A stretch of 64,000 nt of DNA, taken from the sequence record PZ445451.1. One strand, given 5' to 3'. Below, piece by piece: positions 6,415 through 49,890 of the stretch. The stretch's first letter is position 1, and every line of letters starts with the position of its first letter. The translations under genes were made by a program, and so were the position numbers. Source of the stretch: a phage. The notes under the pieces were generated by a model. That model was given only the letters and a program-made list of their open reading frames with translations. It was not told where the DNA came from and searched no databases.

Positions 6415-7362
6415 TTAGAAACAGTGCAGGAAGTTTCGACCATACTGCAAACCAATAGGAGCAAATGGGATATCATCATCGAAATCTTGAACAACAGGTT
6501 CTGGTTCTTTCGGTGCTGGCTCTTTCTTCTCTACTTTTTTAGTTTCTTTCTTAACTTCTTGTACTGGGATAGACATTCCACGGATAGCAGCAGCTACTTT
6601 ATCAGACAAAGCAAGAACTTCACGAGCAGCTTCAATAATCTCTTCTGCCGTTACAGTTTTACCTGTATGATCACGACAAGCGTTAAGAATTGCGTGTCCA
6701 ACTGAAGCACCAAGATCATAGTCAGTTACATCAACGCCACGATCTTTAGCAATTTCAGCTTTCAGAGTAACAGTTGCAGATTGTACCACACCAGCCAAGT
6801 CGAAAGCATCACCTTTCACACCAGCACGTAGAAGCTCCAGAGCGCCGTTTACAGCGTGTCCTGTTTCAATCCCTACGGTATCACGTTTTTTGTAGTTAGG
6901 CTTGCTACCGTCATTATTAGAGGGCTTATTTCCACCTTTTGAAGAGGATTGTGCTTGCTGAACACCTTCTGTTGAAAGAATAGTGATTTTACCTTTAGAG
7001 GAATTATAGTATGTTTTGCCATTCCATTCAGAAGGTTTAACATCCATAGTTAGTTCTACACCTTTTTCGATAGTAACCCATTTATCACCATCTTTAACTT
7101 GCAGGTTTTCATGTTCTGGGTGCAGTTTAACTTCACCTAAGCTAACCCAAACACCTTTATCATCAGCACCAGCACCTTTCTCTTTAATAAGCAGAGATGC
7201 TTTGTGAGTTGATTCAATTTTCTTATCTGGTTGACCTGCAACCTTAATATAAGAGACTTTCATTTCATCAAACTTATCCAGTTTGACATATTCAACGATA
7301 CCTTCAGCCCAGAATGCTTCTTTTTTAGTACGACGGTCGATTTCAGAATTAATTACTGGCAT
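6415..7362 (-). CDS. ssb: Single-stranded DNA-binding protein
   Basis: C-terminal acidic tail QDFDDDIPF typical of SSB partner-binding tips; Gly/Ser/Asn-rich linker; sits in replication module. Confidence 0.7.
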   Translation of the reverse strand: MPVINSEIDRRTKKEAFWAEGIVEYVKLDKFDEMKVSYIKVAGQPDKKIESTHKASLLIKEKGAGADDKGVWVSLGEVKLHPEHENLQVKDGDKWVTIEKGVELTMDVKPSEWNGKTYYNSSKGKITILSTEGVQQAQSSSKGGNKPSNNDGSKPNYKKRDTVGIETGHAVNGALELLRAGVKGDAFDLAGVVQSATVTLKAEIAKDRGVDVTDYDLGASVGHAILNACRDHTGKTVTAEEIIEAAREVLALSDKVAAAIRGMSIPVQEVKKETKKVEKKEPAPKEPEPVVQDFDDDIPFAPIGLQYGRNFLHCF

Positions 7363-7378
7363 AAATTCTCCTCTATAA

Positions 7379-7777
7379 TTACATTACTTTAACACAAAAC
7401 TCTCGTAAAAGAGTAGCGTCAGTTTCTTCCAACAGGTATTTACCAAGACCAATACCAAATCCTATTTCACCACTTTCAAAATGGAGGATTTGTATCTTTT
7501 CTCCACCAAGGTTAATTACTTTTGCTTTTCCAGGATTATCCAAAACATCTCGTATTGTATCCTGTAGTAACATAAGCTCACGTTTTGTGATAGTGGTTTC
7601 AGATATCTCTTTGTTTTCTACTCTCACTGTTAAACGATTGTATCCACCAAAGAGACATAGTATTTGAATAAAAAAGGTATTATCTTGAGGTTCAACATCT
7701 TTTTTAGTTAGTTCAAGACGATTAGTTTCTCTACTGTAGAACGTCTCGACTAAGATTTTAGAACGATTATCTGTCAT
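7379..7777 (-). CDS. Hypothetical protein
   Basis: 132 aa ORF in co-directional gene string; no recognisable motif. Confidence 0.5.
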   Translation of the reverse strand: MTDNRSKILVETFYSRETNRLELTKKDVEPQDNTFFIQILCLFGGYNRLTVRVENKEISETTITKRELMLLQDTIRDVLDNPGKAKVINLGGEKIQILHFESGEIGFGIGLGKYLLEETDATLLREFCVKVM

Positions 7778-7820
7778 TCAAGTCCTCATAATAACACATA
7801 ATTGTAAGGTTTGTCAACAC

Positions 7821-8414
7821 TTAAATCTTAAATTCTTCGTTGTTAAGTGAATCCAGTGTACGTACTTCTGGTTCTTTGGGGATGAAAACGTCTTTTACAA
7901 AGCGGAACATAGGGAAACGTTCTGCCATTTTACGGACGTGTGCTTCTTTACCTGTGTAGCGGTGATTAATAGTACAAATATTAGTTTTCAGCGCAAATTC
8001 AAAATCTGGATGATATACATAATTTTGACCATCCCAGTAACACAGGCAAATAGCTACGTCAAAGTTCCATACGATTTCACTGCGTACACCTTCTTCCATG
8101 ATCATAAAGTTAAACTTAAGATCTTTATAGTATGCTTCAAATACCCATTTCAAATGTGGTAGTTCGGCATAAGTGTGTTCTGTTTGCTTAGTAAGTTGTT
8201 TAACATTACGTGCACCAACACCCAACATCAAAAATTTCTCTACTAGTACGAGTGTATTGTGGTTAGGCATACGCAAGTAAATATCAATATCTTGCGCAGG
8301 TTTCTCTAATCGCCAATCACGTACAGCGCCGCCAGCTACAATTGCAAACGGATCTACCAGTTGGCACATACGTAATACTTCTAAAGCTCGTACTTTTTGA
8401 TCTTCAATATTCAT
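7821..8414 (-). CDS. Pol-beta-type nucleotidyltransferase, CCA-adding/poly(A)-polymerase head-like
   Basis: AIVAGGAVRDW...DIDIY matches the GGxVRD...DxD head-domain signature; start moved to internal ATG 7 nt after AGGAG. Confidence 0.55.
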   Translation of the reverse strand: MNIEDQKVRALEVLRMCQLVDPFAIVAGGAVRDWRLEKPAQDIDIYLRMPNHNTLVLVEKFLMLGVGARNVKQLTKQTEHTYAELPHLKWVFEAYYKDLKFNFMIMEEGVRSEIVWNFDVAICLCYWDGQNYVYHPDFEFALKTNICTINHRYTGKEAHVRKMAERFPMFRFVKDVFIPKEPEVRTLDSLNNEEFKI

Positions 8415-8422
8415 ATTTTCTC

Positions 8423-9010
8423 CTATCGTTTCCACTCTTTGTGTTGTTCTACATGCTCAAGCATTTCATTATATAGTGCTTTAAGATGTGGAACAACTCT
8501 TTCATCTTCAGTTTCAAAGAATTTTGTAAGCTGCTCTGCTTTAGCTTTCAACCAGCAAAGATGCGCTTCAATTTCAGTATTAAAACGTCCCAGCGTTTTT
8601 ATGCGACTGTCTACTTTTATATTGGCTTTGTATTTATTACGATCTTTTTCGTAACTACATCCCACCATAGTCCCATGAGATCTTTTACTTACTCTATAAG
8701 CTAAGAACTTATTAAGATCTCCTGTTACTAAAAGACAGGTATTGGGAGAGTAAACTCTCCCTCCTATAATATCTTTATCAAGTTCTAAGTTTTCCCAGTC
8801 ATCCCAAGTTTGCAACCAGGAATAGAAATTGGAGAACAACTTCCATTCTTCACAAACTGTCACCCCATTATAACAAGGATCACGTTCTTGTTGACAAGGG
8901 GAGTAACACCTCCCCAACATAGACATCCATTTCATATAAGCAGGGTGCATAGTTCCTCTAGGAGATCTTACAGTAAAATCTCCATCAAAAATACCATGAC
9001 CATATACCAT
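8423..9010 (-). CDS. Putative freestanding homing-endonuclease-like / AP2-type DNA-binding protein
   Basis: YMKWMSMLGRCY...YNGVTVCEEWKLFSNFYSW resembles the N-terminal DNA-binding module of phage HNH/AP2 homing endonucleases; AAGGAG RBS. Confidence 0.4.
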   Translation of the reverse strand: MVYGHGIFDGDFTVRSPRGTMHPAYMKWMSMLGRCYSPCQQERDPCYNGVTVCEEWKLFSNFYSWLQTWDDWENLELDKDIIGGRVYSPNTCLLVTGDLNKFLAYRVSKRSHGTMVGCSYEKDRNKYKANIKVDSRIKTLGRFNTEIEAHLCWLKAKAEQLTKFFETEDERVVPHLKALYNEMLEHVEQHKEWKR

Positions 9011-9039: not shown

Positions 9040-12000
9040 CTAATGACAACTGGCCCATGAGTTACCAACATCGTACCCAGCAGTGAGAGGTACATTAAGA
9101 TTGTAATACTCACCAGCTTTATTAACAGCGATAGATGCTAATTCTCCAGCACGACTGTAGGCTGTAAACCAACCACCTTTCGGAGATTCATGTACGTTCG
9201 CCCAAATCTTGCCAGTACGTTTCTCTTCCTCTTCTTTCCAGGCATTAACTTTATCCAAACATTCTTTATCAATTTTCTTTTGTTCTTCTGGATCATCAAC
9301 TTGAGTCCAACCTAAAGATTCTTTAGAGAACCATTTAAAATGCACCAGATCACGAGTTACTTCAAGTTGTGCTTCATCGTGATATGCAATCATTTGTTGA
9401 ACGAATGACTTATTTTTCCAGTCATCAACAAAAAAGTCAACAGCTAATCCTTCTTCTTCGATAAGATCGTCGTAGATAACCATTGCTCTTTTTGCACAAA
9501 TAACACCACCACTCTGGAACAGAGAGTTAAGTATTGCGTGTGCAGATCGTGTAGGTACTTTTCTACCATCAATACCGAGAATGTATTTCTTACCTGTTTT
9601 AACCCAAAAGTCATGCAGACGTTCTTTAAGAAGCGCAAGAGGTTTTGCAGCTTCCCAGAAAGCATCGTATACAAGCTGTCCTGTATACATATCACTACCT
9701 ATAGTTTTTGCTACTTTTGCAGCTTGAGCACCATAAGTAATACCATACTTAACAGATTTAGCAGGGCTTCGTTCAAACTTACGACCAATAGTGTCAGAAA
9801 TACGTCGAGCCATCATTGTATGAACATCATTAGGTTTTTCCAATAATAGAGCATTACAATATTCGTGTGGTTCCTGCTCGTACCGCCAACAATTCCCTGT
9901 AATCGTGATGCAGTCTTTCTGACGCATAACCCATGTACCGAGTTCTGTTTGTGGACACCAAACATCTTCTACACCCCATTCTTCAATAGTCAGACTTTGA
10001 ACAGGGATGTGAGAGCGGTTAGCCAACGTTGCCACTTTTACTTTCTGGTCTTTCGTATTGAAGGCTACAGAAATATTACCCCCATGAACCAGGTATGAGG
10101 CAGTTAAGGCTGCTTCAAAAAGTTCTCCTGGGTTCTGCGCCCAGCGCCAAACAGGTTTTTGTTTATGTTTGTGCCAGTAACCATCCGCAATCAAAAAACC
10201 TTCCAAGAAAGCCACACGCTCGGCATGAGACATATTAACTACACGTTCTACCCACGGAACATCCCATTTACCTTGTTGAACAGAAGTTAAACTATTTACT
10301 TGATCTTGTTCCATGTTAAATGGAGCATTACAAATAATGTTATCTCCTGTGCAAAGCTCGGCAGTTGTTCTGACTTTAGGCACATAAGTATTCCCTGTAC
10401 TACGAGTATTAACATACCAACGGTGATCTGCTGTTGCACGATAAGTATGGGATTTTCCTTTAATCTCAAACGTCTTACTATTTTTATAGAAGACCTTACC
10501 TTTTACTTTAGTCCATTCTTTAAGTCCTGTTTCTGGGTTATATCCTAAGATTTCATCCCCTTCTTGTAGATCGTGATAACCAACCCAACCTTTACGGGTT
10601 AGTGCTTGTGCATCCATAGGTACACAGTAGTGTGATTCTATTTTTGCCTCAAGAGAATCAAAGTCATAACCAATTTGGAAGTATTTTGGAACTTCTACAC
10701 CAAATAAGTTACGCATTTCATATCCGTACAGAGATGTTACACGTGGGATATTTGCTACTAACCTATGTTTCATACGAGATGTAGCTGCATCACACGTTGC
10801 AGCAGGAGTTGGTATACGACCATCAGCCCTTACTGCTGCCAGATAACCTTTATCGTAATCCTCTTCATCTTCTTCCCAATCAGCACCACCACCTAGAATA
10901 GAGTTCCTACGGTGTTTATACGTAAGATACTGCACAATCTGCGTAGCATAAGGAAACTTTTCACCCAGTGCTTCCAAGTTAGGACAAATATCTTTCTCTT
11001 GCCCTTTTGTAAAGGAAGGGTTCGTAAGCACTTTAACACCACGACCTTTAGCTTTAGCAATACGATCTCTTAGTTTCCATTCCAAAGTTTCTGGTGTGCA
11101 CTCCAGATGATCACATCTGTCCTGGCAGAAGTTAGATGCTAACGTTTGATCAACATAGTCACGAATAGCTTTCTCCATTTGTGCTTCATCTTTCTTAATC
11201 TTAGTGCCAGATTTAAGAGTGATATCTTTATCTTTGTATTCAGATGGACTCCAACCTAAACCAACTAACCAGTTTTTAATATGTGTAGTGTCGTCTAAAG
11301 TAGCAGGTACTGTAGGATCACAAATAGGTTCTTCTGCTGGAATAGGGAGTTTAAACTCTTTACCTAAAGCAAATAACCACCAACCATCTTCTTTTTGTAC
11401 AAGTTCACCAGAATGTTTCTCTGCAAACTTTATCATGTTACTTGAAGGTTCACCATTCTTTTTAAACTGTAGTTTAGGTGGAATGAATGATTTCAAATAA
11501 CCTTTGGTAGCAGGTTTAGGAGGTAGCACAGGTTCTGCCTCTAAACGACATGCTTCCATTCGAGCATCCAGATCACGAATATTATCTTCTGCTTGTTTCA
11601 TATTGAAAGCAAAGCCACGGTGCTCTTGACGTGTAATAATATCAGCTACACGTTGTTCTAAGTTAAATGGTTCAGACCACTTATTATAATCACCCCACTC
11701 TTCCATCAAATAACGGAACACTGCGGTGTTAGCTTTGTTATCGTAAATACAGTAATACAGCATATCTGCTGCAAATGTTTTAAATCTTTCAGTTTCAGGG
11801 ATGTTTTTTCTAAAATCAATTTTAACATCCCCTCCAGCTTTCTTAGATAACTCTGCCAGACTATGACCACCGAAGCGATCAGGGTTTAGTGTCTTACTTA
11901 AGATCATAGTATCACAAATTTCAATGTTACTATTACCCCAAGTATTGTACTTAATACTGTAGTTGAGTTTAAAAAATAATTTAATTGCCAGTAAGTCGAA

Positions 12001-12354
12001 GTTAATGATGTTGTGTCCAACTACTTTGGTAATTTTATAGTTTGAATTACCTTTAAATTTACCTGTTCCATTTACAAAATCAGGAAAATCTTTAAGAGGG
12101 AAATGGGTATATTCTAAATGCTCATATTCCTCCAATCGGTATTCATACTTTCCGTCAGTCTCAATATACGGACGACCATCGAAAAGATATTTATCACCAT
12201 CATGGAAAGCAATAATCTCTCCAGTATCATGACTTTCGCACACAATACAGTGCATTGCAAAACTATCTTTTAAACGATATGGACTTGCCAAGTAATCTAC
12301 ACTTTCGTCATTAAGCAAGTTGTTACTTTCAATGTCGAAAGTAAAAGCTCCCAT
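9040..12354 (-). CDS. DNA polymerase family A with 3'-5' exonuclease domain, interrupted by an intein
   Basis: Motif A GYDFDSLEAKIESHY, motif B RSPAKSVKYGITYG, motif C AYHDE; AAGGAGG RBS; 245-residue insert between motifs A and B. Confidence 0.9.
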   Translation of the reverse strand: MGAFTFDIESNNLLNDESVDYLASPYRLKDSFAMHCIVCESHDTGEIIAFHDGDKYLFDGRPYIETDGKYEYRLEEYEHLEYTHFPLKDFPDFVNGTGKFKGNSNYKITKVVGHNIINFDLLAIKLFFKLNYSIKYNTWGNSNIEICDTMILSKTLNPDRFGGHSLAELSKKAGGDVKIDFRKNIPETERFKTFAADMLYYCIYDNKANTAVFRYLMEEWGDYNKWSEPFNLEQRVADIITRQEHRGFAFNMKQAEDNIRDLDARMEACRLEAEPVLPPKPATKGYLKSFIPPKLQFKKNGEPSSNMIKFAEKHSGELVQKEDGWWLFALGKEFKLPIPAEEPICDPTVPATLDDTTHIKNWLVGLGWSPSEYKDKDITLKSGTKIKKDEAQMEKAIRDYVDQTLASNFCQDRCDHLECTPETLEWKLRDRIAKAKGRGVKVLTNPSFTKGQEKDICPNLEALGEKFPYATQIVQYLTYKHRRNSILGGGADWEEDEEDYDKGYLAAVRADGRIPTPAATCDAATSRMKHRLVANIPRVTSLYGYEMRNLFGVEVPKYFQIGYDFDSLEAKIESHYCVPMDAQALTRKGWVGYHDLQEGDEILGYNPETGLKEWTKVKGKVFYKNSKTFEIKGKSHTYRATADHRWYVNTRSTGNTYVPKVRTTAELCTGDNIICNAPFNMEQDQVNSLTSVQQGKWDVPWVERVVNMSHAERVAFLEGFLIADGYWHKHKQKPVWRWAQNPGELFEAALTASYLVHGGNISVAFNTKDQKVKVATLANRSHIPVQSLTIEEWGVEDVWCPQTELGTWVMRQKDCITITGNCWRYEQEPHEYCNALLLEKPNDVHTMMARRISDTIGRKFERSPAKSVKYGITYGAQAAKVAKTIGSDMYTGQLVYDAFWEAAKPLALLKERLHDFWVKTGKKYILGIDGRKVPTRSAHAILNSLFQSGGVICAKRAMVIYDDLIEEEGLAVDFFVDDWKNKSFVQQMIAYHDEAQLEVTRDLVHFKWFSKESLGWTQVDDPEEQKKIDKECLDKVNAWKEEEEKRTGKIWANVHESPKGGWFTAYSRAGELASIAVNKAGEYYNLNVPLTAGYDVGNSWASCH
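9892..10626 (-). mobile_element. Intein in DNA polymerase with LAGLIDADG-like homing-endonuclease motif
   Basis: Starts with Cys right after motif A, TADH block B, LEGFLIADGY motif, ends ...ITITGN followed by Cys; removal restores normal A-to-B spacing. Confidence 0.65.
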
Positions 12355-14635: not shown

Positions 14636-14905
14636 CTAAAATGATTCGTTTGTCTCCATAATATATTGCATTTCCAAATCTTCCATATGTTTCTTAAATT
14701 GGTAAACAATTTCCGATGGGGAAATATCTATATCAAAAAGTTCTTTTGTACCAGAATAAAATCTAATACCATCAACAATAAGACCACCATAATAATCCCA
14801 ATCACTTTCTCGTGAGAAAGGGTTAGGTTCTTCATAATAGTAATCTACTTCAACAATAATAGGCTCTTTATTATCTTGTTTATACTCAAAATCAAAAGTG
14901 TTCAT
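14636..14905 (-). CDS. Hypothetical acidic protein
   Basis: 89 aa ORF packed between primase-helicase and glycosyltransferase genes. Confidence 0.45.
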   Translation of the reverse strand: MNTFDFEYKQDNKEPIIVEVDYYYEEPNPFSRESDWDYYGGLIVDGIRFYSGTKELFDIDISPSEIVYQFKKHMEDLEMQYIMETNESF

Positions 14906-15849
14906 TATAAATCCTCGATAAGCAGTCTGCGGGTTTCATTTAAATCATCAATATTGTAGTTATCTCTTACATACTTAGCAAGAGCCAATCCTTTCTCAAT
15001 ACAAACATCAGGAGATTCGATTAAGTATTCTACAATATCTTTCCACTCTTTAACTGAATCAGCAAAGAAGATTAGATCTTTAAATTCTTCAGTATAATAG
15101 TTCTCTCGTGGCGAACAAACGAGTGGCAAACCTTTAGCACCAGCTTCAAGAATTTTTAAATTACTTTTGGCATTATTAAAATGATTATTTACTAACGGAG
15201 CTATGGAGATTTGATGACCATCGTATGCTTCCATATAACACTCATAAGGACGAATACCTTCATAAACACAATCTGGTTGAATATTTTCTTTAATTTGCAA
15301 CCATTGAGCACTACTCAACTCTTCGTGATCTCTACGAAATCCACATAAAGTTAAATCTTTACCAAAATCAGGAAGAATTGCTAAATCATGTTTATGTGTT
15401 TCACTTCCCGCCCAAACCAGTGGACTTTTAGAATAACGATCTTTAGTAAGAACAAACTGTCCTTCATCAAAAGGTAATCCGTTAGGCACAATATGTACAT
15501 TATCATTGTATTGGCTTAATTCAACCTTTAATGCCGGAGTTGTTGTAGTTACAAGATCGCTTCTTTCAAGGAACCATTTTAGGTCATCTCGGATTTGATT
15601 TTCAAATAGTCCTTCAAGCATATGCCCTTCAGGAATAATTAAAGAATCATCCAGATCCATTACCAATTTAAACCCAAGTTGTTTAAGAGCCAGGAAACCT
15701 GGCTTTCCACGTGTTGGTACTCCATTGAACACAAAAATATTATGCTTAGGATTAATGGTCAGTTTGCGTTTATATGGCAAAATGATTCTATGAAAATCAC
15801 ATACACTATACTTTTCATTTCCGCGTGTGTCAAGAATAATATTAGGCAT
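14905..15849 (-). CDS. Glycosyltransferase, GT-B fold (paralog 1)
   Basis: C-terminal SNLKILEAGAKGLPLVCSP donor-binding-like motif; shares blocks CD(F/Y)HRI, VFN(G/R)V, DLDD, LTKDRYS with the adjacent gene. Confidence 0.55.
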   Translation of the reverse strand: MPNIILDTRGNEKYSVCDFHRIILPYKRKLTINPKHNIFVFNGVPTRGKPGFLALKQLGFKLVMDLDDSLIIPEGHMLEGLFENQIRDDLKWFLERSDLVTTTTPALKVELSQYNDNVHIVPNGLPFDEGQFVLTKDRYSKSPLVWAGSETHKHDLAILPDFGKDLTLCGFRRDHEELSSAQWLQIKENIQPDCVYEGIRPYECYMEAYDGHQISIAPLVNNHFNNAKSNLKILEAGAKGLPLVCSPRENYYTEEFKDLIFFADSVKEWKDIVEYLIESPDVCIEKGLALAKYVRDNYNIDDLNETRRLLIEDL

Positions 15850-15860
15850 ATAACTCCTTG

Positions 15861-16835
15861 TTAAAGACTTTCAATAACTTGACGACGCAGTTCATTGGCA
15901 TCTGCAAGATTATAATTAAGACGAACGTGTTCTGCAAGCATCATACCACGATCTTCTGTGTATCTAGGGTTCCTCATTAGCTTGACAACTTCATAATGCC
16001 AAGATGCTTTAGAGTCTGCATAGATAACAGCCTTTGCATCTACCGGATTGAAGTACGGCAGCACAGGAGAACAGATAATAGGAAGACCCTTTGCACCTGC
16101 TTCCAAAATCTTCAAATTGCTTTTACAGTTGTTGAAGTCATTATCTACCAGAGGAGCAATTGCAATACTGTGACCGTCATACACAGACATATACTCACCT
16201 AAATTTTTAATAGCTGGTTTATACTGTGCATTTGGAATTTTACGTTTTATTTTAACCCACTCCGCAGTAGTTAGATACTGACTGTTATTTCCAACAGGTG
16301 CAGAAGGATACACTTCATACCCTGCAATTGTCAATAGTGTATCATCAAATGTATTAGCTACAAGAGATAAATCAGGTTCATGGCTTGCTCCTCCAGCCCA
16401 AACAATAGGCGTGTCAGAATAACGGTCTTTTGTTAAAGTAAATTGACCTTCGTCGTAAGGCAGTGCGTTTCTAATAACGACAACATTACGATTTAAATGA
16501 CGAATTTTGTAAGCTAGGTATTCTGTTGTTACTGTAACAACATCTGCTAACTTAACCATCTCTACAATAGTTTTTGAGTGATTAGTAAATACGCCAGCCA
16601 TATAATGTTCAGGATTAAGCGAATAAAAATCATCTAAATCAACAATAATCTTAACACCTTGTGCCTTCAGGCGTTTAACTTCGTCTGATCCACGAGAATA
16701 CACTCTATTAAAAACTAAAACGTCTTTCTTAGGCTTAAACGTATTTCCCGCAAATGGCATTACAATACGATGGTAATCACAACCACTGCCTAACTTATTA
16801 TCACACTTAAGTACAGGAGTATTAGGATTTACCAT
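15861..16835 (-). CDS. Glycosyltransferase, GT-B fold (paralog 2)
   Basis: Same blocks as 14905-15849 including SNLKILEAGAKGLPIICSP; start set at internal ATG 6 nt after AGGAGG. Confidence 0.55.
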   Translation of the reverse strand: MVNPNTPVLKCDNKLGSGCDYHRIVMPFAGNTFKPKKDVLVFNRVYSRGSDEVKRLKAQGVKIIVDLDDFYSLNPEHYMAGVFTNHSKTIVEMVKLADVVTVTTEYLAYKIRHLNRNVVVIRNALPYDEGQFTLTKDRYSDTPIVWAGGASHEPDLSLVANTFDDTLLTIAGYEVYPSAPVGNNSQYLTTAEWVKIKRKIPNAQYKPAIKNLGEYMSVYDGHSIAIAPLVDNDFNNCKSNLKILEAGAKGLPIICSPVLPYFNPVDAKAVIYADSKASWHYEVVKLMRNPRYTEDRGMMLAEHVRLNYNLADANELRRQVIESL

Positions 16836-17508
16836 ATTTTTGAGCCTCCTCATAAGAGATAAAAGTTTTACCATTGCGAAGATCCTCCAGTGATTGTTTA
16901 TATTGTTCCCAGTTTACACCAATCCCCTGTTCTTTCTCTTCTTTTGACAGATTCGCAAAAGGTAAAGGATTATCTCCAAACACATCGTCAGGATGGATAA
17001 ACGCCATAATTCGAATAGGACATGGTACACCGAGAATGCCTCGGTTCAAACCTGCCAGTGGAACGCGCTGAATCCACTCTGCATCTTCATATCCATAACC
17101 GTGGGTGTATGAGCGGAAATAGCCAGCTTTCTCAATAACTGCACGGGAATACATACCAAACTGGCACATACCTAGTTCCCAAATAACCACCTCCCCTTCA
17201 ATACCTTTTACTTTATCTTTAAAGTATTCAGGCATACCAAAGAAATCCCAACCATTTTCCTTTGCCTGTTTTACAAAATATGTTTCCCACCCTGGAACAA
17301 CAGGGTAGCAATCATCATCAAAAATAAACCAGTAGTCATACCCTTCATCATAAAACTTTTTCATCAGTTCATTACGGGCATATGCAACACCTTTTCGTTC
17401 ACGATCATACTGTACAACAAAAGTAGCATTAGGATCAGTCACAAGATAATCTTTAAGAGGACGCTTACCTACAGTAATAACACCAACACCAATTTTTGTA
17501 TTTTCCAA
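16822..17508 (-). CDS. Glycosyltransferase, GT-A fold (family-2-like)
   Basis: FIFDDDCYP DxD-type motif and YGYEDAEW motif. Confidence 0.6.
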   Translation of the reverse strand: MENTKIGVGVITVGKRPLKDYLVTDPNATFVVQYDRERKGVAYARNELMKKFYDEGYDYWFIFDDDCYPVVPGWETYFVKQAKENGWDFFGMPEYFKDKVKGIEGEVVIWELGMCQFGMYSRAVIEKAGYFRSYTHGYGYEDAEWIQRVPLAGLNRGILGVPCPIRIMAFIHPDDVFGDNPLPFANLSKEEKEQGIGVNWEQYKQSLEDLRNGKTFISYEEAQKYGKS

Positions 17509-17517
17509 AATAACTCC

Positions 17518-18081
17518 TTAAATAATTTTATTCATGTCTTGACAATGTAAAAGGTGTGAAACAGCTTTTCTAGGATCATCATTACCTAAACGGTAGGTGT
17601 GAAATAAATATAACCCACGTAATAAACCTAGCCTTTTGTTGTTAGCATGTAATGCTTTAGAGAAAATTATATCAAACTGTATTGACCTTTCCTCAAAAGG
17701 GATTTCATTCCACAGACTCTTACGAAAGAGAAGAAAGAATCCTGCTAAGATAGCATCTGTAGGTACTTCCTCTATTGAGTTTCCCCATTCTAGATGTGCT
17801 CTTTTTGCAATCTCAATGTGGTGTAATATATTCGGATCTTCACTTCTTTCATTATTAAATAATTGATATGTTGATCCCAATCTGTTACAAGATGCACCAA
17901 GAACATCAAAATCAGGATTTGAACGGACAATTGATTCCAGCCAAGCAGGTTGTTCTGGAAGAAGAAACATTGTATCAATGTCTCTTAGGCAAATCCAACT
18001 ATCTTCTGGTAAGACACTTATTGTGTCATTGATACCTTTTCCAATATCTCCAGAAAGATAGGGAGTTATGTGAAATATCAT
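17518..18081 (-). CDS. Putative small glycosyltransferase-like protein
   Basis: ICLRDIDTMF DxD-like motif; clustered with three glycosyltransferases; weak assignment. Confidence 0.3.
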   Translation of the reverse strand: MIFHITPYLSGDIGKGINDTISVLPEDSWICLRDIDTMFLLPEQPAWLESIVRSNPDFDVLGASCNRLGSTYQLFNNERSEDPNILHHIEIAKRAHLEWGNSIEEVPTDAILAGFFLLFRKSLWNEIPFEERSIQFDIIFSKALHANNKRLGLLRGLYLFHTYRLGNDDPRKAVSHLLHCQDMNKII

Positions 18082-27212: not shown

Positions 27213-27929
27213 TTATTTCAGTTTGTAAACAATTACATTTAAACCTTTGTTTACTAGAGTTTCTTCGATCATAAGTTTTACAATATTCCAAGAACCTCCA
27301 GCCAAACCACAACCAAGCATTGGTAAACCTACAATTTTACCGCCTGAAGATACAACATCGTCTCCCATACTATCTAGCGCATTGTAGATAGCTTCATAAT
27401 TCAGGTCACGCTTACCTTCCTCACGACTACTATAACCATATTGTCCATATAAATTATAAATTGTCAAATTGTTTTCTGTATATTTGGTAAACGTACCTAA
27501 TTTTTTATAATCACCACGTTTAGTGGCACAATCTGCTTTAAACGCACCAGGCCACTTGCTTTTAATTTTTGGTGCAATACCACTACCCATAGTGCAAAAA
27601 CAGTTACAGCAGTGTGCTATAGCGTCTATATCGCCTCTCTCGGCTGCTGCTAAAAGATCACCGTATACCTCAACGATACCTGCTGGATAACTTGTTACAA
27701 TTTCATCTTCCCAGTACATTTTCTCTACACCACCGATCAGTGCAAAGTTTTGTGTAATGCGATCATCAATATAGTTAAGACCTGAAACATACACAGCGTA
27801 TTCATCCTGTGCTGTAATACCTTGCACACGAATTCTTAAGACACCATCTTTATCTGTTGCTACACGCCCAAAATCTTTTTCTGTAATATTGGTGATAGGA
27901 TCTCCGAAAGTCATTACTTTATTAGACAT
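27213..27929 (-). CDS. Rossmann-like nucleotide-processing domain protein (macro- or LOG/SLOG-like)
   Basis: DAIAHCCNCFCTMGSGIA and VGLPMLGCGLAGGSW Gly-rich loops resembling macro or LOG motifs; start set at ATG after AAGGGG, overlapping PRTase stop by 8 nt. Confidence 0.45.
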   Translation of the reverse strand: MSNKVMTFGDPITNITEKDFGRVATDKDGVLRIRVQGITAQDEYAVYVSGLNYIDDRITQNFALIGGVEKMYWEDEIVTSYPAGIVEVYGDLLAAAERGDIDAIAHCCNCFCTMGSGIAPKIKSKWPGAFKADCATKRGDYKKLGTFTKYTENNLTIYNLYGQYGYSSREEGKRDLNYEAIYNALDSMGDDVVSSGGKIVGLPMLGCGLAGGSWNIVKLMIEETLVNKGLNVIVYKLK

Positions 27930-28779
27930 AATAATCCCCTTTAACATTAGATTTGTTGATAATGTTGCTTTCAAAAAATTGACGTAGGAAATCAAAGTTC
28001 TCTTTGTATTTTTCAACGTTATTGTAACCTTCTGCAAGGCAACCAAAGAACAGTTGTTCTACATAATACAAAGGAAGTTGTGAAAGTGCAATTTTAAAAT
28101 CAACTTCGCTTTGACTCATTAGATACTTAATAGGACGAACCAAACATTTAGCATCAGTTTCTTGCTTAATCATTTTAATAAAAGCTGCCAGATTGTTGAT
28201 ATAGTTGAAGTTAAGTGCAGCTTCGGTATTGGCTTCTGTACCTTCATACTTTGCAAAGTACAGGAAAAACGTATCGTTTTCAACACCTTCTTTGTCTAAA
28301 ATTTCAATAAGTTTTTCTTCGTGTGTTCCTGTAATATTAACATCATCAATGAAAATCAGAGTTTTATTACCCCAGAAATCACGATTGATAGAGAAAGTGT
28401 CACCATCGATCAAAGCCTTACGATCTTCTTTGCTAAGAAATCCATAATCATTAATGTAGCTCACTTTACGATGAACGATATCCCACTCCACTGCTTTACC
28501 TCCTTTGATAGAGATTAGGTAGTTGAGGTGATCTACAAAATGTTCAGATAACACTGTAGCTGCATTTTTCACATAGTTATATGGAGATGGAATAACAACA
28601 AAACTTTCATTTACCAGTCGTTCTTCATACTTAGAAAAGAAACTTTCAGCCAGAATGCGCCCCATTCTTTTTGCTGCCTGGTTACTGCCAAACTTTAGCT
28701 TGGAATAATCTGCAATGTTAAATTTTGCTTCCTTCAGGTTAGTAAAAGTATTAGCAAAATGTTGAATTTGATTACGCAT
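27922..28779 (-). CDS. Type I phosphoribosyltransferase-domain protein
   Basis: PRPP-binding signature LIFIDDVNITGTHEE. Confidence 0.6.
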   Translation of the reverse strand: MRNQIQHFANTFTNLKEAKFNIADYSKLKFGSNQAAKRMGRILAESFFSKYEERLVNESFVVIPSPYNYVKNAATVLSEHFVDHLNYLISIKGGKAVEWDIVHRKVSYINDYGFLSKEDRKALIDGDTFSINRDFWGNKTLIFIDDVNITGTHEEKLIEILDKEGVENDTFFLYFAKYEGTEANTEAALNFNYINNLAAFIKMIKQETDAKCLVRPIKYLMSQSEVDFKIALSQLPLYYVEQLFFGCLAEGYNNVEKYKENFDFLRQFFESNIINKSNVKGDYYV

Positions 28780-29428
28780 TAATAAGTTCCTCTTTTTTAA
28801 GTTTAGCCAACAAGTCTTCTGGATTAATAATATGACAGAACTTCATCCCTATGTCAACAGCTTTTCCATCATAGATCAAACTATCTCCAACGTGTAAGAT
28901 CTCCTCTGGTGCGAGATCAAACGTTACCATTTCATCAAAAGAGAGTTTAAAAAACCTGGGATCTGGTTTACACAAGCAAAACTCATCAGAAAAATGCATA
29001 AAGTCAAATGGTAATTTTGTCAAGCCAGAATATACAGCTAAGAAACTACCAGGTACAAAATTGGTATTGCTTTTAATACTCAAAGAATAGGTTGAACTTA
29101 GCTCTTCCAACTTCTTGCAAAGTTCAGGGTTTAATGTTGGAGGATGTTTTATAAACATTGCTAAACAGTCTCTTTTTAACCCATCCACCTTATCAAGATC
29201 AATGTTCAAATGAGCAGAAAGTGTTTCCCAAGCATTTCTAGATGTTCCACAAATGCCTTTTTCTGCTTTTAAATCCAAGAGAGTTTTTACCTCTTTATAT
29301 ACGGTAGCTGCTTCTACCTCAGAACAAGAGGCATACTCGGCAATAACCTTGTTGCGTTCTTCTGCATACAAAGGATTAGCAGTAATAAGAGTATTCCATA
29401 CATCAAAAGAAATATGCTTAACAGTCAT
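28772..29428 (-). CDS. HAD-superfamily hydrolase (phosphatase-like)
   Basis: N-terminal ISFDVWNTLI motif I-like block and C-terminal HVGDSLIYDGK motif IV-like block; overlaps PRTase start by 8 nt. Confidence 0.55.
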   Translation of the reverse strand: MTVKHISFDVWNTLITANPLYAEERNKVIAEYASCSEVEAATVYKEVKTLLDLKAEKGICGTSRNAWETLSAHLNIDLDKVDGLKRDCLAMFIKHPPTLNPELCKKLEELSSTYSLSIKSNTNFVPGSFLAVYSGLTKLPFDFMHFSDEFCLCKPDPRFFKLSFDEMVTFDLAPEEILHVGDSLIYDGKAVDIGMKFCHIINPEDLLAKLKKEELINA

Positions 29429-34339: not shown

Positions 34340-34774
34340 TTAGTTTAAAATTTCTTTTGCAATGGTAGAAGCAAGTTTTCCATCATATTGATTCGGATAC
34401 TCTGCTTTAAGGTGTTTCATCATATCTGGCATTTTCTTGCCTGTCAAGGCAAATTCTTCAGCAATAGCTCGAAGATCATCTTCAGATAGCATTTCTGGTA
34501 AATATTTTTCCAGAATGGTGATATCACGCATAGCTCGCTCACATTTGCTAATGGAGGCATTAACTTTCTTAAGCGAGTCTAGTTCCTCTTTAGCGTGTGC
34601 AATACCAATCTTAACAATGTTAATCATAATATCATCTTCTGATTTATTCAGATTTGCCTTTTGAGTACGAGCAAGGTCAAACTCACCAATAATATTAGTT
34701 AACAAAGCAAAAGCACCCTTATCGGTTGTACGTGCTAAGATACGATCTGCTTTCATTTGTGTCACAATAGACAT
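34340..34774 (-). CDS. GatB/YqeY-domain protein
   Basis: ILEKYLPEMLSEDDLRAIAEEFALTGKK...GKLASTIAKEIL matches the C-terminal signature of YqeY/GatB-type domains. Confidence 0.55.
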   Translation of the reverse strand: MSIVTQMKADRILARTTDKGAFALLTNIIGEFDLARTQKANLNKSEDDIMINIVKIGIAHAKEELDSLKKVNASISKCERAMRDITILEKYLPEMLSEDDLRAIAEEFALTGKKMPDMMKHLKAEYPNQYDGKLASTIAKEILN

Positions 34775-34786
34775 TCTATTCTCCTC

Positions 34787-35359
34787 TTATTTGCTAATGC
34801 TTTGAATCTTATTTACAACACGGTTTATTGCCAGTGAAGCCCTAGGCTCCGCAATACCTGTTGCATAGATATAAGGATGACCTTTTGGAGACTCCCTCAT
34901 ACCGAATGAACCTAATTCTAAACCATATTCATCCTCTACGTCAACCCCAATATTAGTGGGTACTAAATATGTTTTAACTCCATAATAAGTAGAGAAGAAA
35001 CAGCGCATAGCGTTAGCATACTCTTCAATTGTAGCATCAGGGTAGAACTCAATCAACTCCAATTTCAAGAAAATATTAAAATGGGTATCATCTAAATTTT
35101 CTTCTGTGCGGTAACATGGTGTTAGTGCCATATACGGATTACCTACTGCAAATTCAAAACCATCCTTCTCCATTTGCAGGAAAGATTGTTCTGCACTAGC
35201 TACATAGTATTTACCGTTAGGATGCCCTAATGGGCGATCCTCTTTATTTTCTGGTAGTGTATACGCCAGTATATCAGCATCCACGAGATATGGAACTTCT
35301 AACATTTGTGCAAATCGACCATAGTAATCAATAGCTTGAGCTATTACTGCAACATTCAT
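34787..35359 (-). CDS. Minimal class II aminoacyl-tRNA-synthetase-like catalytic core (class IIb-like)
   Basis: CYRTEENLDDTHFNIFLKLE resembles class IIb motif 2 (FRNEG...HNPEFTMLE); GIAEPRASLAI resembles motif 3; only 190 aa, no anticodon-binding domain. Confidence 0.45.
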   Translation of the reverse strand: MNVAVIAQAIDYYGRFAQMLEVPYLVDADILAYTLPENKEDRPLGHPNGKYYVASAEQSFLQMEKDGFEFAVGNPYMALTPCYRTEENLDDTHFNIFLKLELIEFYPDATIEEYANAMRCFFSTYYGVKTYLVPTNIGVDVEDEYGLELGSFGMRESPKGHPYIYATGIAEPRASLAINRVVNKIQSISK

Positions 35360-49338: not shown

Positions 49339-49890
49339 ATGCGGATTACTGATAAGTATGTGTTCTTCTTTTCAGCAAAAGATGAATTTAGCAACTGGTA
49401 TCTATCATCTTTTATTGAACCTTTAGCACCCAAGTATAATAATTCTATTACAAGTTCTGTTGAATTTACTTGTGTGGAACAATATATGATGTGGAGAAAA
49501 GCATGTTTGTTTTATGATTACAGTATTGCATCTTCTATTTTAACCGGAGATCTAAGATATACAGGAGAAAAAGAACAAGCATATTATAAGCGACTAGGCA
49601 GATTAGTTAAAGATTATGATGAAGATACCTGGACTTCTTTACGGGAGAAGATTGTCAAACGTGGTTTGTATCTTAAATACACACAAAATGAAGATCTCAA
49701 AAATAAACTTATAGCCTACGCAGATAAGGAGTTCGTAGAGGCAAGCCCCTATGATTCTATTTATGGTATCAAAATGGGGATGTGGGATCGTGATGTGGAA
49801 AATAAGGACTGTTGGAAAGGACAAAATCTTTTAGGAAAATGGCATACAGACCTTGCTGTTTATCTAAAAACACAATCTGATATTTCCTGA
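49339..49890 (+). CDS. NADAR (YbiA-like) domain protein
   Basis: FFFSAKDEFSNWY, CVEQYMMWRKACLF and DSIYGIK...GQNLLGKWHTDL align with the conserved YbiA blocks. Confidence 0.6.
   Translation: MRITDKYVFFFSAKDEFSNWYLSSFIEPLAPKYNNSITSSVEFTCVEQYMMWRKACLFYDYSIASSILTGDLRYTGEKEQAYYKRLGRLVKDYDEDTWTSLREKIVKRGLYLKYTQNEDLKNKLIAYADKEFVEASPYDSIYGIKMGMWDRDVENKDCWKGQNLLGKWHTDLAVYLKTQSDIS

What the first reader, a model, noticed from the sequence alone, without database searches (positions are those of the whole stretch)
7821..8414. Small CCA-adding-enzyme-like nucleotidyltransferase in the replication module
The GGAVRD...DIDIY head signature in a protein of about 200 aa suggests tRNA 3'-end repair, polyadenylation or nucleotide-signal synthesis. 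Phage tRNA repair is a known counter to tRNA-cleaving host defences, so this may be an anti-defence gene; together with the aaRS-like and YqeY genes it forms a possible tRNA-centred theme.
Basis: inference. Interest (0 to 1): 0.5.

Follow-up and report, generated by a model that had tools for sequence, protein, structure and literature searches.

The report
Minimal Gad2-family phage nucleotidyltransferase
This is a real, conserved phage gene for a stripped-down nucleotide-adding enzyme that looks like the catalytic head of a tRNA CCA-adding enzyme. It lacks the parts needed for CCA repair and belongs to the family of the anti-Gabija protein Gad2, so it is more likely a replication-linked counter-defence enzyme than a tRNA repair enzyme.

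Summary
The window is Escherichia phage PaulScherrer (Bas60, phi92-like). The ORF at 7821-8414 (minus strand, 197 aa, bas60_0042) is real. It has an AGGAG ribosome-binding site, pN/pS of 0.03-0.06, and the exact GGAVRD...DIDIY motif. It belongs to a family of about 1000 clusters of roughly 190-aa phage proteins (PHROG 1614).

The tRNA-repair reading is not supported:
- Only motif A is intact. Motif B (RRD) is NFD, and motif D (EDxxR) is KEAHV, with the indispensable templating Arg lost.
- The neck, body and tail domains are absent.
- All 14 phage tRNA genes already encode CCA.
- The phage's Pnk/RNA-ligase cassette lies about 98 kb away, and the aaRS-like/YqeY genes about 26 kb away.

Public Pfam hits place the protein in PF26128 "Gad2". 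Profile-profile comparison with genuine Gad2 gives 95.5% probability. Gad2 has an unknown mechanism, an extra 260-aa C-terminal region and a different genomic context.

Across 39 dereplicated viral lineages, the gene lies within 2 kb of a T7-type primase-helicase or DNA polymerase in 24 and within 5 kb in 29. My best reading is an active minimal nucleotidyltransferase working with phage replication, probably as anti-nuclease counter-defence. It is a new member of a known kind and of moderate interest.

The parts
7821..8414 (-). CDS bas60_0042, 197 aa: minimal class II-type (CCA/PAP-head-like) nucleotidyltransferase. Member of PHROG 1614 and of Pfam PF26128 'Gad2' by precomputed hits.
8420..8424 (-). 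Ribosome-binding site AGGAG, 5 nt upstream of ATG 8414. It overlaps the TAG stop (8425-8423) of the upstream HNH gene, which suggests translational coupling.
   Evidence: sequence read directly
8277..8333 (-). Motif A: GGAVRDW (res 28-34) followed by the metal-binding DIDIY (res 42-46). G28, G29, W34, D42 and D44 are invariant in the family.
   Evidence: aligns to GGAVRD...DxD of CCA enzymes
8046..8066 (-). Remnant of class II motif B: NFDVAIC (res 117-123), against RRDLTIN in E. coli Cca. The two Arg residues are lost and the Asp is kept. It aligns to Gad2 TFDFTVC, whose D106 is invariant.
   Evidence: spacing D44->D119 = 75, against 69 in Cca and 80 in PcnB; the assignment itself is inference
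7914..7952 (-). Remnant of the class II motif D helix: GKEAHVRKMAERF (res 155-167), against GEDPLRVLRVARF in Cca. The templating Arg is replaced by V160. K162 is nearly invariant in the family.
   Evidence: the assignment itself is inference
9040..12354 (-). Family A DNA polymerase with an intein (9889-10623), transcribed in the same direction. In intein- and HNH-free relatives it lies directly upstream of the NTase.
8423..9010 (-). HNH homing endonuclease (phrog_953, E 7e-75) inserted between the DNA polymerase and the NTase. It is absent from the near-identical contig L096.
12851..14623 (-). T7 gp4-type primase-helicase (Toprim_2 + DnaB_C). With the DNA polymerase, it is the most frequent neighbour of NTase homologues.
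7379..7777 (-). 132-aa protein of unknown function (phrog_16560). It is the conserved downstream neighbour only in the phi92-like clade.
6415..7362 (-). 315-aa acidic-tailed protein carrying DFDDDIPF; probably the phage SSB. It is the next gene in the same module.
   Evidence: the SSB assignment is inference
7788..7817 (-). Sigma-70-like promoter match (TTGACA-18-TATTAT, TG extended, 11/12), immediately after the NTase stop codon.
   Evidence: consensus match only

Best explanation
bas60_0042 encodes a stand-alone, catalytically competent nucleotidyltransferase. It consists of a class II (CCA-adding enzyme / poly(A) polymerase) head domain plus the first neck helix. It keeps the metal- and triphosphate-binding motif A. 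It has lost the ribose-sensing Arg pair of motif B, the base-templating Arg of motif D, and the whole tRNA-binding neck/body/tail. It therefore cannot work as a CCA-adding enzyme.

It belongs to a very large, almost exclusively viral family (PHROG 1614; Pfam PF26128 'Gad2'). It is co-oriented with the T7-type replisome genes and, since no terminator-like site lies between the polymerase and it, probably co-transcribed with them.

I infer that it is made together with the replisome and transfers a nucleotide (NMP, or possibly dNMP) to an acceptor connected with replicating phage DNA. The most likely acceptor is a nucleic-acid 3' end; alternatively the enzyme makes a small nucleotide product. 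The benefit would be protection of the phage from a host nuclease-type defence, as shown genetically for its only characterised relative, Gad2, against Gabija.

Shown here: gene reality, fold, family membership, loss of the CCA motifs, replisome linkage.

Inferred: enzymatic activity, the acceptor, the anti-defence role.
For: The gene is real and constrained:
- RBS and coupling to the upstream gene.
- pN/pS 0.03-0.06.
- 56 phage records at >=95% protein identity.

The catalytic core is intact:
- GG and DxD are invariant in 138/138 family representatives.
- The model is confident, pLDDT 89.

Link to the Gad2 family:
- PF26128:Gad2 is an unmarked (E<=1e-5) hit for the 99%-identical P0001 and for many distant homologues.
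- hhalign of the family against the Gad2 family gives 95.5%, E 1.4e-8, over 121 columns.
- Genuine Gad2 hits phrog_1614 (8e-6), and both proteins hit phrog_4400.
- Gad2 is necessary for SPbetaL7 to escape Gabija and is a predicted NTase (bioRxiv 10.1101/2023.05.01.538930).

Replisome linkage:
- In 39 NTase lineages (<60% identity) from IMG/VR, a primase-helicase or DNA polymerase lies within 2 kb in 24, within 5 kb in 29 and within 10 kb in 31.
- They are on the same strand in 54 of 57 cases, and the gene order varies.
- Other recurrent neighbours are a FEN exonuclease, DNA ligase, ThyX and dNMP kinase.
- In the HNH-free relative, the polymerase is followed directly by the NTase.

Gabija is described as a DNA-end-sensing system (PMC12904381).
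Against: - No biochemical data exist for any short-form member. The mechanism of Gad2 itself is unknown.
- Homology to Gad2 covers only the ~120-residue NTase core.
- Gad2 has GGAITS instead of GGAVRDW, and an extra ~260-aa C-terminal region that may carry the anti-Gabija specificity.
- Gad2 sits among small accessory genes, not replication genes.
- The candidate third carboxylate, E93, is acidic in only about 70% of family members.
- Replication-module location may reflect expression timing or modular inheritance rather than function.
- Bas60's isolation host, K-12, has no Gabija (own knowledge).
- PADLOC gives no hit, though it models defence proteins rather than anti-defence proteins.
Confidence: 0.4

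Rival explanations
1. tRNA 3'-end CCA repair or maturation enzyme. The protein would rebuild CCA ends of host or phage tRNAs damaged by tRNA-tail-cleaving defences, or add CCA to phage tRNAs.
For: - Motif A is a near-perfect class II signature, and the best structural matches are CCA/A-adding enzymes and PAP I.
- Databases often label homologues 'tRNA nucleotidyltransferase/poly(A) polymerase'.
- Defences that cut tRNA 3' tails exist (Cas12a3, PMC12851939).
- Two metagenomic homologues lie 3-5 kb from RtcB or from an RNA ligase/RlaP/kinase set, and one lies 2.6 kb from a 17-tRNA array.
Against: - Motif B RRD is NFD. In motif D EDxxR, the templating Arg is V160 here and I/V/P across the family. 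In selection experiments the D and R of EDxxR could not be substituted (PMC11784652).
- There is no neck, body or tail: 197 aa against about 400.
- PolyA_pol scores below the gathering threshold, and the NCBIfam CCA models score 15 bits against a 290-bit cut-off.
- All 14 Bas60 tRNA genes encode NCCA.
- The phage's Pnk/RNA ligase/phosphoesterase cassette is about 98 kb away.
- tRNAs lie within 10 kb in only 5 of 60 loci.
- The conserved neighbours are replisome genes.
Confidence: 0.1
2. A replication or DNA-metabolism accessory with no defence role. For example, a terminal (deoxy)nucleotidyl transferase acting on genome ends, Okazaki primers or nicks, or one step of a DNA base-modification pathway.
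For: - Strong, order-independent linkage to primase-helicase and DNA polymerase across 39 lineages.
- Loss of the motif B Arg pair, which in class II enzymes reads the ribose 2'-OH (own knowledge), could permit dNTP use.
- The BASEL authors made the same suggestion for a nucleotidyltransferase encoded with the replication genes of Gordonclarkvirinae (PMC11990801).
Against: - The gene is absent from many phages with the same replisome type, such as T7 (own knowledge; also implied, where it occurs in 60 of more than 500 other Autographiviridae). It is therefore accessory, not core.
- No partner modification enzymes are conserved next to it.
- The only genetic phenotype in the wider family is anti-defence.
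Confidence: 0.2
3. RNA tailing, or synthesis of a small nucleotide product. Examples are a poly(A)/oligo-N polymerase acting on host or phage RNA, or a maker of a nucleotide decoy or inhibitor that keeps a nucleotide-sensing nuclease off.
For: - The minimal architecture, without a nucleic-acid-binding domain, fits small-molecule chemistry.
- GajA is inhibited by nucleotides (own knowledge), so a nucleotide product could explain Gad2-type inhibition.
Against: - No conserved effector or sponge partner is present.
- Replisome linkage is not explained by this reading.
Confidence: 0.15
4. Protein nucleotidylylation (AMPylation) of a host defence or replication protein, in the manner of MNT-type minimal nucleotidyltransferases.
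For: The small stand-alone Pol-beta fold is comparable in size to MNT antitoxins. Gad2 from SPbetaL7 is toxic when expressed.
Against: - There is no HEPN or other conserved partner.
- The motif A context (GGxxRD) is of class II RNA-NTase type, not MNT type.
Confidence: 0.07

Closest known systems
Gad2 (Gabija anti-defence 2) of Bacillus phage SPbetaL7; Pfam PF26128
   Same: - The N-terminal Pol-beta NTase core is homologous: hhalign 95.5%, E 1.4e-8, query residues 12-151 against Gad2 17-140.
- Shared AGG, DxDxY, Q102/Q88 and FD..C motifs.
- Both are hit by the Pfam Gad2 model, and their PHROG hits cross-link.
- Both are essentially phage or prophage proteins.
   Different: - Gad2 is 400 aa, with a conserved ~260-aa C-terminal region that is absent here.
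- Gad2 has GGAITS instead of the family-invariant GGA[PV]RDW.
- Gad2 lies among small accessory genes of Firmicutes (pro)phages, not in a replisome module.
- Anti-Gabija activity has not been tested for any short form.
[quoted passage not shown]
   Same: - Same fold and same motif A (GGAVRD-x8-DxD).
- The order and spacing of the motif A, B and D positions are preserved.
   Different: - Motif B RRD is NFD, and motif D EDxxR is KEAHV.
- No flexible-loop or motif E signature is recognisable.
- There is no body or tail domain: 197 aa against 400-465.
- The score is below the Pfam and NCBIfam thresholds.
- Sequence similarity is confined to about 40 residues.
NP_344798.1 of Streptococcus pneumoniae (PDB 2la3), a 191-aa stand-alone 'CCA-adding enzyme head domain' protein
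   Different: Sequence identity is 9%, and profile search finds no match. It is a bacterial protein of unknown function, so it gives no functional information.
Small 'tRNA nucleotidyltransferases' of Autographiviridae (e.g. Pectobacterium phages PP47, PP81, Q19, PP2, DU_PP_II)
   Same: These are proteins of 167-215 aa with the same fold (BFVD hits, E 1e-7). They are encoded between the primase/helicase and the DNA polymerase (PMC7693777), so they share the replisome linkage.
   Different: They are only distantly related in sequence (15-17% identity in the structural alignment). They are equally uncharacterised, and the tRNA label in that paper is a prediction.

Membership tests
Pol-beta superfamily nucleotidyltransferase fold | hG[GS] turn followed by DxD on the next strand, in an alpha-beta-alpha-beta-alpha-beta core | tested here: met
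Pol-beta superfamily nucleotidyltransferase fold | Third catalytic carboxylate on a neighbouring strand | tested here: inconclusive
   The candidate E93 on strand 88-96 is E/D in about 70% of the family and N in 14%.
Class II CCA-adding enzyme / poly(A) polymerase (PF01743) | Motif A: GGxVRD ... DxD | tested here: met
   GGAVRD(28-33)-x8-DID(42-44); aligned to Cca, PcnB and PDB CCA enzymes.
Class II CCA-adding enzyme / poly(A) polymerase (PF01743) | Pfam / NCBIfam model score above the curated threshold | tested here: not met
   PolyA_pol 19.1 bits against a 23-bit cut-off. NF009814 scores 15 against 290, and TIGR03671 scores 14 against 281.
Class II CCA-adding enzyme / poly(A) polymerase (PF01743) | Motif B: RRD | tested here: not met
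   The positionally equivalent stretch is N117-F118-D119. Across the family, position 119 is P/D/S.
Class II CCA-adding enzyme / poly(A) polymerase (PF01743) | Motif D: EDxxR amino-acid template (D and R indispensable, PMC11784652) | tested here: not met
   The equivalent stretch is K156-E157-A-H-V160. The Arg position is I/V/P across the family.
Class II CCA-adding enzyme / poly(A) polymerase (PF01743) | Neck, body and tail domains that bind the tRNA / RNA primer | tested here: not met
Class II CCA-adding enzyme / poly(A) polymerase (PF01743) | CCA (or A) addition to tRNA 3' ends | not testable with these tools
   This needs an in vitro assay or cca complementation.
Pfam PF26128 (Gad2) | Significant match to the family HMM | tested here: met
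   This rests on precomputed public hits only: PF26128.2 for P0001, which is 99% identical, unmarked and so E<=1e-5. The local Pfam copy lacks this model, since genuine Gad2 also gives no hit. Independent support: hhalign 95.5%.
Pfam PF26128 (Gad2) | Full Gad2 architecture (about 400 aa: NTase core plus conserved C-terminal region) | tested here: not met
   Only Gad2 residues 17-140 have a counterpart. The Gad2-invariant residues from 142 to 389 have none.
Pfam PF26128 (Gad2) | Inhibition of Gabija defence | not testable with these tools
   Genetic evidence exists only for SPbetaL7 Gad2 and a Brevibacillus homologue.
PHROG 1614 (phage 'nucleotidyltransferase') | Match to the family profile over most of its length | tested here: met
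   E 4.6e-34, residues 7-193.
Known anti-phage defence proteins (PADLOC), including MNT/HEPN and CD-NTase systems | Match to a defence-system model, or a conserved partner gene | tested here: not met

The most novel reading that the evidence does not exclude
The short-form Gad2-family enzymes are replisome-associated terminal transferases. Having lost the ribose- and base-reading residues of CCA enzymes, they add untemplated (deoxy)nucleotides to phage DNA 3' ends or to primers. This masks the DNA ends from end-sensing host nucleases such as Gabija or RecBCD. It would reveal the unknown mechanism of Gad2 and a new way for phages to protect replicating DNA.
Probability: 0.12. Interest if true: 0.75.

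Novelty: new member of a known kind. Interest (0 to 1): 0.4.

Why it matters
- Gad2 is one of the few anti-defence proteins predicted to be an enzyme, and its mechanism was still unknown in 2026.
- This gene is a 197-aa version of the same catalytic core with nothing else attached.
- It sits in a well-behaved E. coli K-12 phage of the BASEL collection, which makes it a convenient handle for finding out what this very widespread viral enzyme family (about 1000 sequence clusters) does.
- The analysis also corrects a common database label. 'tRNA nucleotidyltransferase / poly(A) polymerase' is not justified for these proteins.
- The analysis puts numbers on their association with T7-type replisome genes.

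Tried and rejected
- **Local Pfam and NCBIfam.** Both gave only sub-threshold PolyA_pol/CCA hits. The local Pfam copy lacks PF26128, so membership rests on precomputed hits plus my own hhalign.
- **PADLOC.** No hit.
- **Sequence search of the PDB.** Only the ~40-residue motif A region matches CCA enzymes, at E 0.003. hhalign of the family against E. coli Cca or PcnB extends no further. The motif B and D assignments are therefore by position and spacing only.
- **tRNA theme.** There are no tRNAs in the window and no Rfam family in the window. tRNAs lie near homologues in 5 of 60 loci. The phage tRNAs all encode CCA. I rejected the theme.
- **N-terminal extensions of longer family members.** They gave no Pfam domains.
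- **tblastn with a 385-aa PF26128 protein.** It did not reach the Bacillus Gad2. I located Gad2 through the SPbetaL7 record instead.
- **AFDB50 fold search.** Unavailable.
- **Literature.** No paper was found that characterises phi92 gp158 or any short-form homologue biochemically. Two preprints that mention Gad2 could not be read.
- **Second structure job.** Not used, because no fold-search jobs remained to exploit it.

Full report
**Identity of the window and the gene.** Megablast shows the window is 100% identical to Escherichia phage PaulScherrer (Bas60; MZ501100.1, Justusliebigvirus, phi92-like), positions 32676-96675. The finding corresponds to bas60_0042, annotated there as 'hypothetical protein'. 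The ORF is on the minus strand. That ATG is preceded by AGGAG with a 5-nt spacer, and the site overlaps the TAG stop of the upstream gene. GenBank's GTG start at 8435 adds seven residues that homologues lack. The protein is 99.5% identical to phi92 gp158 'nucleotidyltransferase'. Against three close relatives, pN/pS is 0.03-0.06. It is a genuine gene under purifying selection.

**The observation.**
- GGAVRD (res 28-33) and DIDIY (res 42-46) are present as described.
- The protein matches PHROG 1614 at E 4.6e-34.
- An exhaustive HMM search of 1.84 billion cluster representatives finds 995 clusters at E<=1e-3. Nearly all are stand-alone proteins of about 175-230 aa aligned over residues 1-175.
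- G28, G29, W34, D42 and D44 are invariant.
- Q6, A10, A27, A30, R32, D33, A40, Y82 and K162 are at least 90% conserved.
- An AlphaFold2 model built on 112 homologues is confident (pLDDT 89.4, pTM 0.83).

The description 'small CCA-adding-enzyme-like nucleotidyltransferase' is therefore confirmed.

**Why it is not a CCA-adding enzyme.** Sequence similarity to class II enzymes is limited to helix 1 plus motif A, about 40 residues. The curated models are not reached: PolyA_pol scores 19.1 against 23 bits, and the CCA equivalogs score 14-15 against 281-290 bits.

I used E. coli Cca and PcnB as rulers. The order and spacing of the core motifs are preserved. The distance from the second Asp of DxD to the motif B Asp is 69 in Cca, 80 in PcnB and 75 here. 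The distance from the motif B Asp to the motif D acidic residue is 39, 43 and 38. From there to the RF at the end of the helix it is 10, 10 and 10.

The residues that define the activity, however, are gone. RRDLTIN is NFDVAIC. GEDPLRVLRVARF is GKEAHVRKMAERF, so the templating Arg becomes V160, and this position is I/V/P across the family. In selection experiments on the human enzyme, no substitution of the D or R of EDxxR was recovered (PMC11784652). The protein stops shortly after this helix, so the rest of the neck, the body and the tail, which hold the tRNA, are missing. The motif B and D assignments rest on position and spacing and are my inference. The absence of the canonical residues is directly visible.

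**Why the tRNA theme does not hold.**
- ARAGORN finds no tRNA in the window, and Rfam finds nothing.
- The phage's 14 annotated tRNA genes lie at 146.7-149.3 kb of the genome. All of them encode discriminator-CCA, so no de novo CCA addition is needed.
- The phage has a classical RNA-repair set (polynucleotide kinase, RNA ligase, phosphoesterase) at 138.3-140.2 kb, about 98 kb from this gene.
- The YqeY-like gene (Pfam E 4e-8) and its 'aaRS-like' neighbour are at 34340-35359, about 26 kb away.
- Among 60 viral loci with a homologue, only 5 have any tRNA within 10 kb.
- Two metagenomic homologues lie 3-5 kb from RtcB or from an RNA ligase/RlaP/kinase set. This keeps a small probability for an RNA-end function.

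**What family it belongs to.** The public protein collection lists Pfam PF26128 for the 99%-identical cluster representative and for many distant homologues. The gene-context tool names that family 'Gad2', with an unmarked hit (E<=1e-5).

Gad2 is the second anti-Gabija protein of SPbeta-like Bacillus phages. Deleting it makes SPbetaL7 sensitive to Gabija. A Brevibacillus homologue cancels Gabija defence. It is predicted to be a nucleotidyltransferase, and the SPbetaL7 protein is toxic on expression (bioRxiv 10.1101/2023.05.01.538930). A February 2026 review still lists its mechanism as unknown (PMC12904381).

The local Pfam copy lacks this model, since genuine Gad2 gives no hit. I therefore tested the relationship directly.
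- I retrieved Gad2 from OQ921347.1.
- I built a 40-sequence Gad2 alignment and compared profiles. The result was 95.5% probability, E 1.4e-8, over 121 columns, with query 12-151 matching Gad2 17-140. AGG, DxDxY, Q102/Q88, F118-D119/F105-D106, C123/C110 and F138/F127 line up.
- Genuine Gad2 also hits phrog_1614 (8e-6), and both proteins hit phrog_4400.

The homology of the catalytic core is sound. Orthology is not:
- Gad2 is 400 aa, with a conserved C-terminal region of about 260 aa that is absent here.
- Gad2 has GGAITS where the short family has the invariant GGA[PV]RDW.
- Gad2 sits among small accessory genes.

**Genomic context.** In Bas60 the gene order on the minus strand is as follows:
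1. glycosyltransferases
2. primase-helicase
3. a 131-aa ORF
4. DNA polymerase A (with intein)
5. HNH endonuclease
6. the NTase
7. a 132-aa ORF
8. a 315-aa DFDDDIPF-bearing protein
9. Dam methylase

In a near-identical contig without the intein and the HNH gene, the polymerase is followed directly by the NTase.

To see whether this is general, I fetched 80 IMG/VR loci encoding relatives, called ORFs, clustered them by all-against-all BLASTP and labelled the recurrent clusters. After collapsing the NTases into 39 groups at 60% identity:
- a T7 gp4-type primase-helicase or a DNA polymerase lies within 500 bp in 11 groups, within 2 kb in 24, within 5 kb in 29 and within 10 kb in 31;
- the genes are on the same strand in 54 of 57 cases;
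- the NTase can be upstream of, between, or downstream of these genes.

Other recurrent neighbours are a FEN-type 5'-3' exonuclease, an ATP-dependent DNA ligase, ThyX and a dNMP kinase. Detection of polymerases depended on similarity within this data set, so these counts are lower bounds. The same placement was noted for small 'tRNA nucleotidyltransferases' of Pectobacterium T7-like phages (PMC7693777) and for a nucleotidyltransferase of Gordonclarkvirinae (PMC11990801). BFVD shows many 167-215-aa proteins of T7-like phages with this fold.

**Most likely function.** The invariant GG and DxD, the confident fold and the strong purifying selection argue for an active enzyme. The lost ribose- and base-reading residues and the missing RNA-binding domains argue for a substrate other than tRNA-CCA. 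The only functional datum in the wider family is counter-defence against Gabija, a nuclease system described as sensing DNA ends. The conserved company is the replisome.

I therefore favour (confidence about 0.4) a minimal nucleotidyltransferase made with the replication proteins that modifies a nucleic-acid end, or makes a nucleotide product, to protect replicating phage DNA from a host nuclease defence.

The rivals are:
- a defence-independent replication or DNA-modification role (0.2);
- RNA tailing or small-nucleotide synthesis (0.15);
- tRNA CCA repair (0.1);
- protein AMPylation (0.07).

None can be decided without biochemistry or genetics.

**Novelty and score.**
- The gene is already labelled 'nucleotidyltransferase' in RefSeq relatives.
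- The family already exists in PHROGs and Pfam.
- It is therefore a new, short-form member of a known kind.
- New here:
  - the demonstration that the CCA motifs B and D are degenerate;
  - the explicit link to genuine Gad2;
  - the quantified replisome linkage.
- Interest is moderate (0.4). The protein offers a tractable route to the unsolved Gad2 mechanism, but nothing here is strongly surprising.

Noticed in passing
window 8423-9010 and 9889-10623: The HNH endonuclease gene between the DNA polymerase and the NTase (phrog_953, E 7e-75) and the intein inside the DNA polymerase are both missing from the near-identical contig L096. There the polymerase is 859 aa and is followed directly by the NTase. 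They are mobile insertions that come and go within this phage genus.
   Followed up: partly
window 6415-7362 (minus strand): The 315-aa protein two genes downstream carries DFDDDIPF, identical to the C-terminal tip of E. coli SSB (own knowledge). It sits 15 residues before the protein's end. In a relative (L020) the protein ends exactly at ...DFDDDIPF. This is probably the phage SSB mimicking the host SSB interaction tail. No Pfam hit; phrog_4477, function unknown.
   Followed up: partly
window 7788-7817 (minus strand): A strong sigma-70-like promoter match (TTGACA-18-TATTAT with TG, 11/12) lies directly after the NTase stop codon and ahead of the 132-aa gene. No terminator-like site lies between the polymerase and the NTase.
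   Followed up: no
window 14905-18081 (minus strand): Four glycosyltransferase / 'disaccharide synthase' genes lie directly upstream of the primase-helicase in the same transcription direction. The phage also encodes a dTDP-rhamnose pathway elsewhere. Their target (DNA, host surface or virion) is unknown.
   Followed up: no
window 34340-35359 (minus strand): The 'YqeY' gene is confirmed by Pfam (PF09424, E 4e-8). The adjacent 190-aa 'putative tRNA synthetase' has no Pfam hit. Two more small 'putative aminoacyl-tRNA synthetase' genes are annotated outside the window (bas60_0186 and bas60_0197). This may be a repeated small-protein family worth its own look.
   Followed up: partly
window 49339-49890 (plus strand) and 27213-29428 (minus strand): The YbiA-like gene is the NADAR protein that a DarTG1 study singled out in Bas60 as a distinct phage NADAR (PMC11257639). 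A macrodomain protein, a phosphoribosyltransferase and a HAD protein form a separate cluster. Nampt and PRPP synthetase lie outside the window. Together these suggest ADP-ribose / NAD counter-defence functions.
   Followed up: partly
MZ501100.1 146693-149300 (outside the window; locus L093): All 14 annotated phage tRNA genes encode discriminator-CCA, always followed by A (NCCAA). ARAGORN finds a 15th tRNA-Met at L093 587-662 that is not annotated.
   Followed up: yes
loci L004/L005 (9339-11209), L008 (1-3898) and L014 (13155-20407): In a few metagenomic phages, NTase homologues lie 3-5 kb from RNA-repair genes: RtcB plus GIY-YIG in one, and RNA ligase plus an RlaP nucleotidyltransferase plus a kinase in another. 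A third lies 2.6 kb from a 17-tRNA array. These are a minority pattern compared with the replisome linkage.
   Followed up: partly
and one search hit lists: Records named as Campylobacter, Serratia, Acinetobacter and Salmonella phages carry this region. Listed examples are the Serratia record at 97.2% DNA identity, the Salmonella record at 98.5% protein identity, and the Acinetobacter record at 36.9% protein identity (Phapecoctavirus-like). The host labels of some of these records look doubtful.
   Followed up: no
Vibrio phage ICP1 records, e.g. HQ641351.1 118585-118959; locus L047: The ICP1 homologue (ORF223, 137 aa) covers only residues 3-126 of the query. It is therefore a head-only truncation lacking the motif D-like helix, and it lies near the genome end rather than next to the polymerase.
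   Followed up: no
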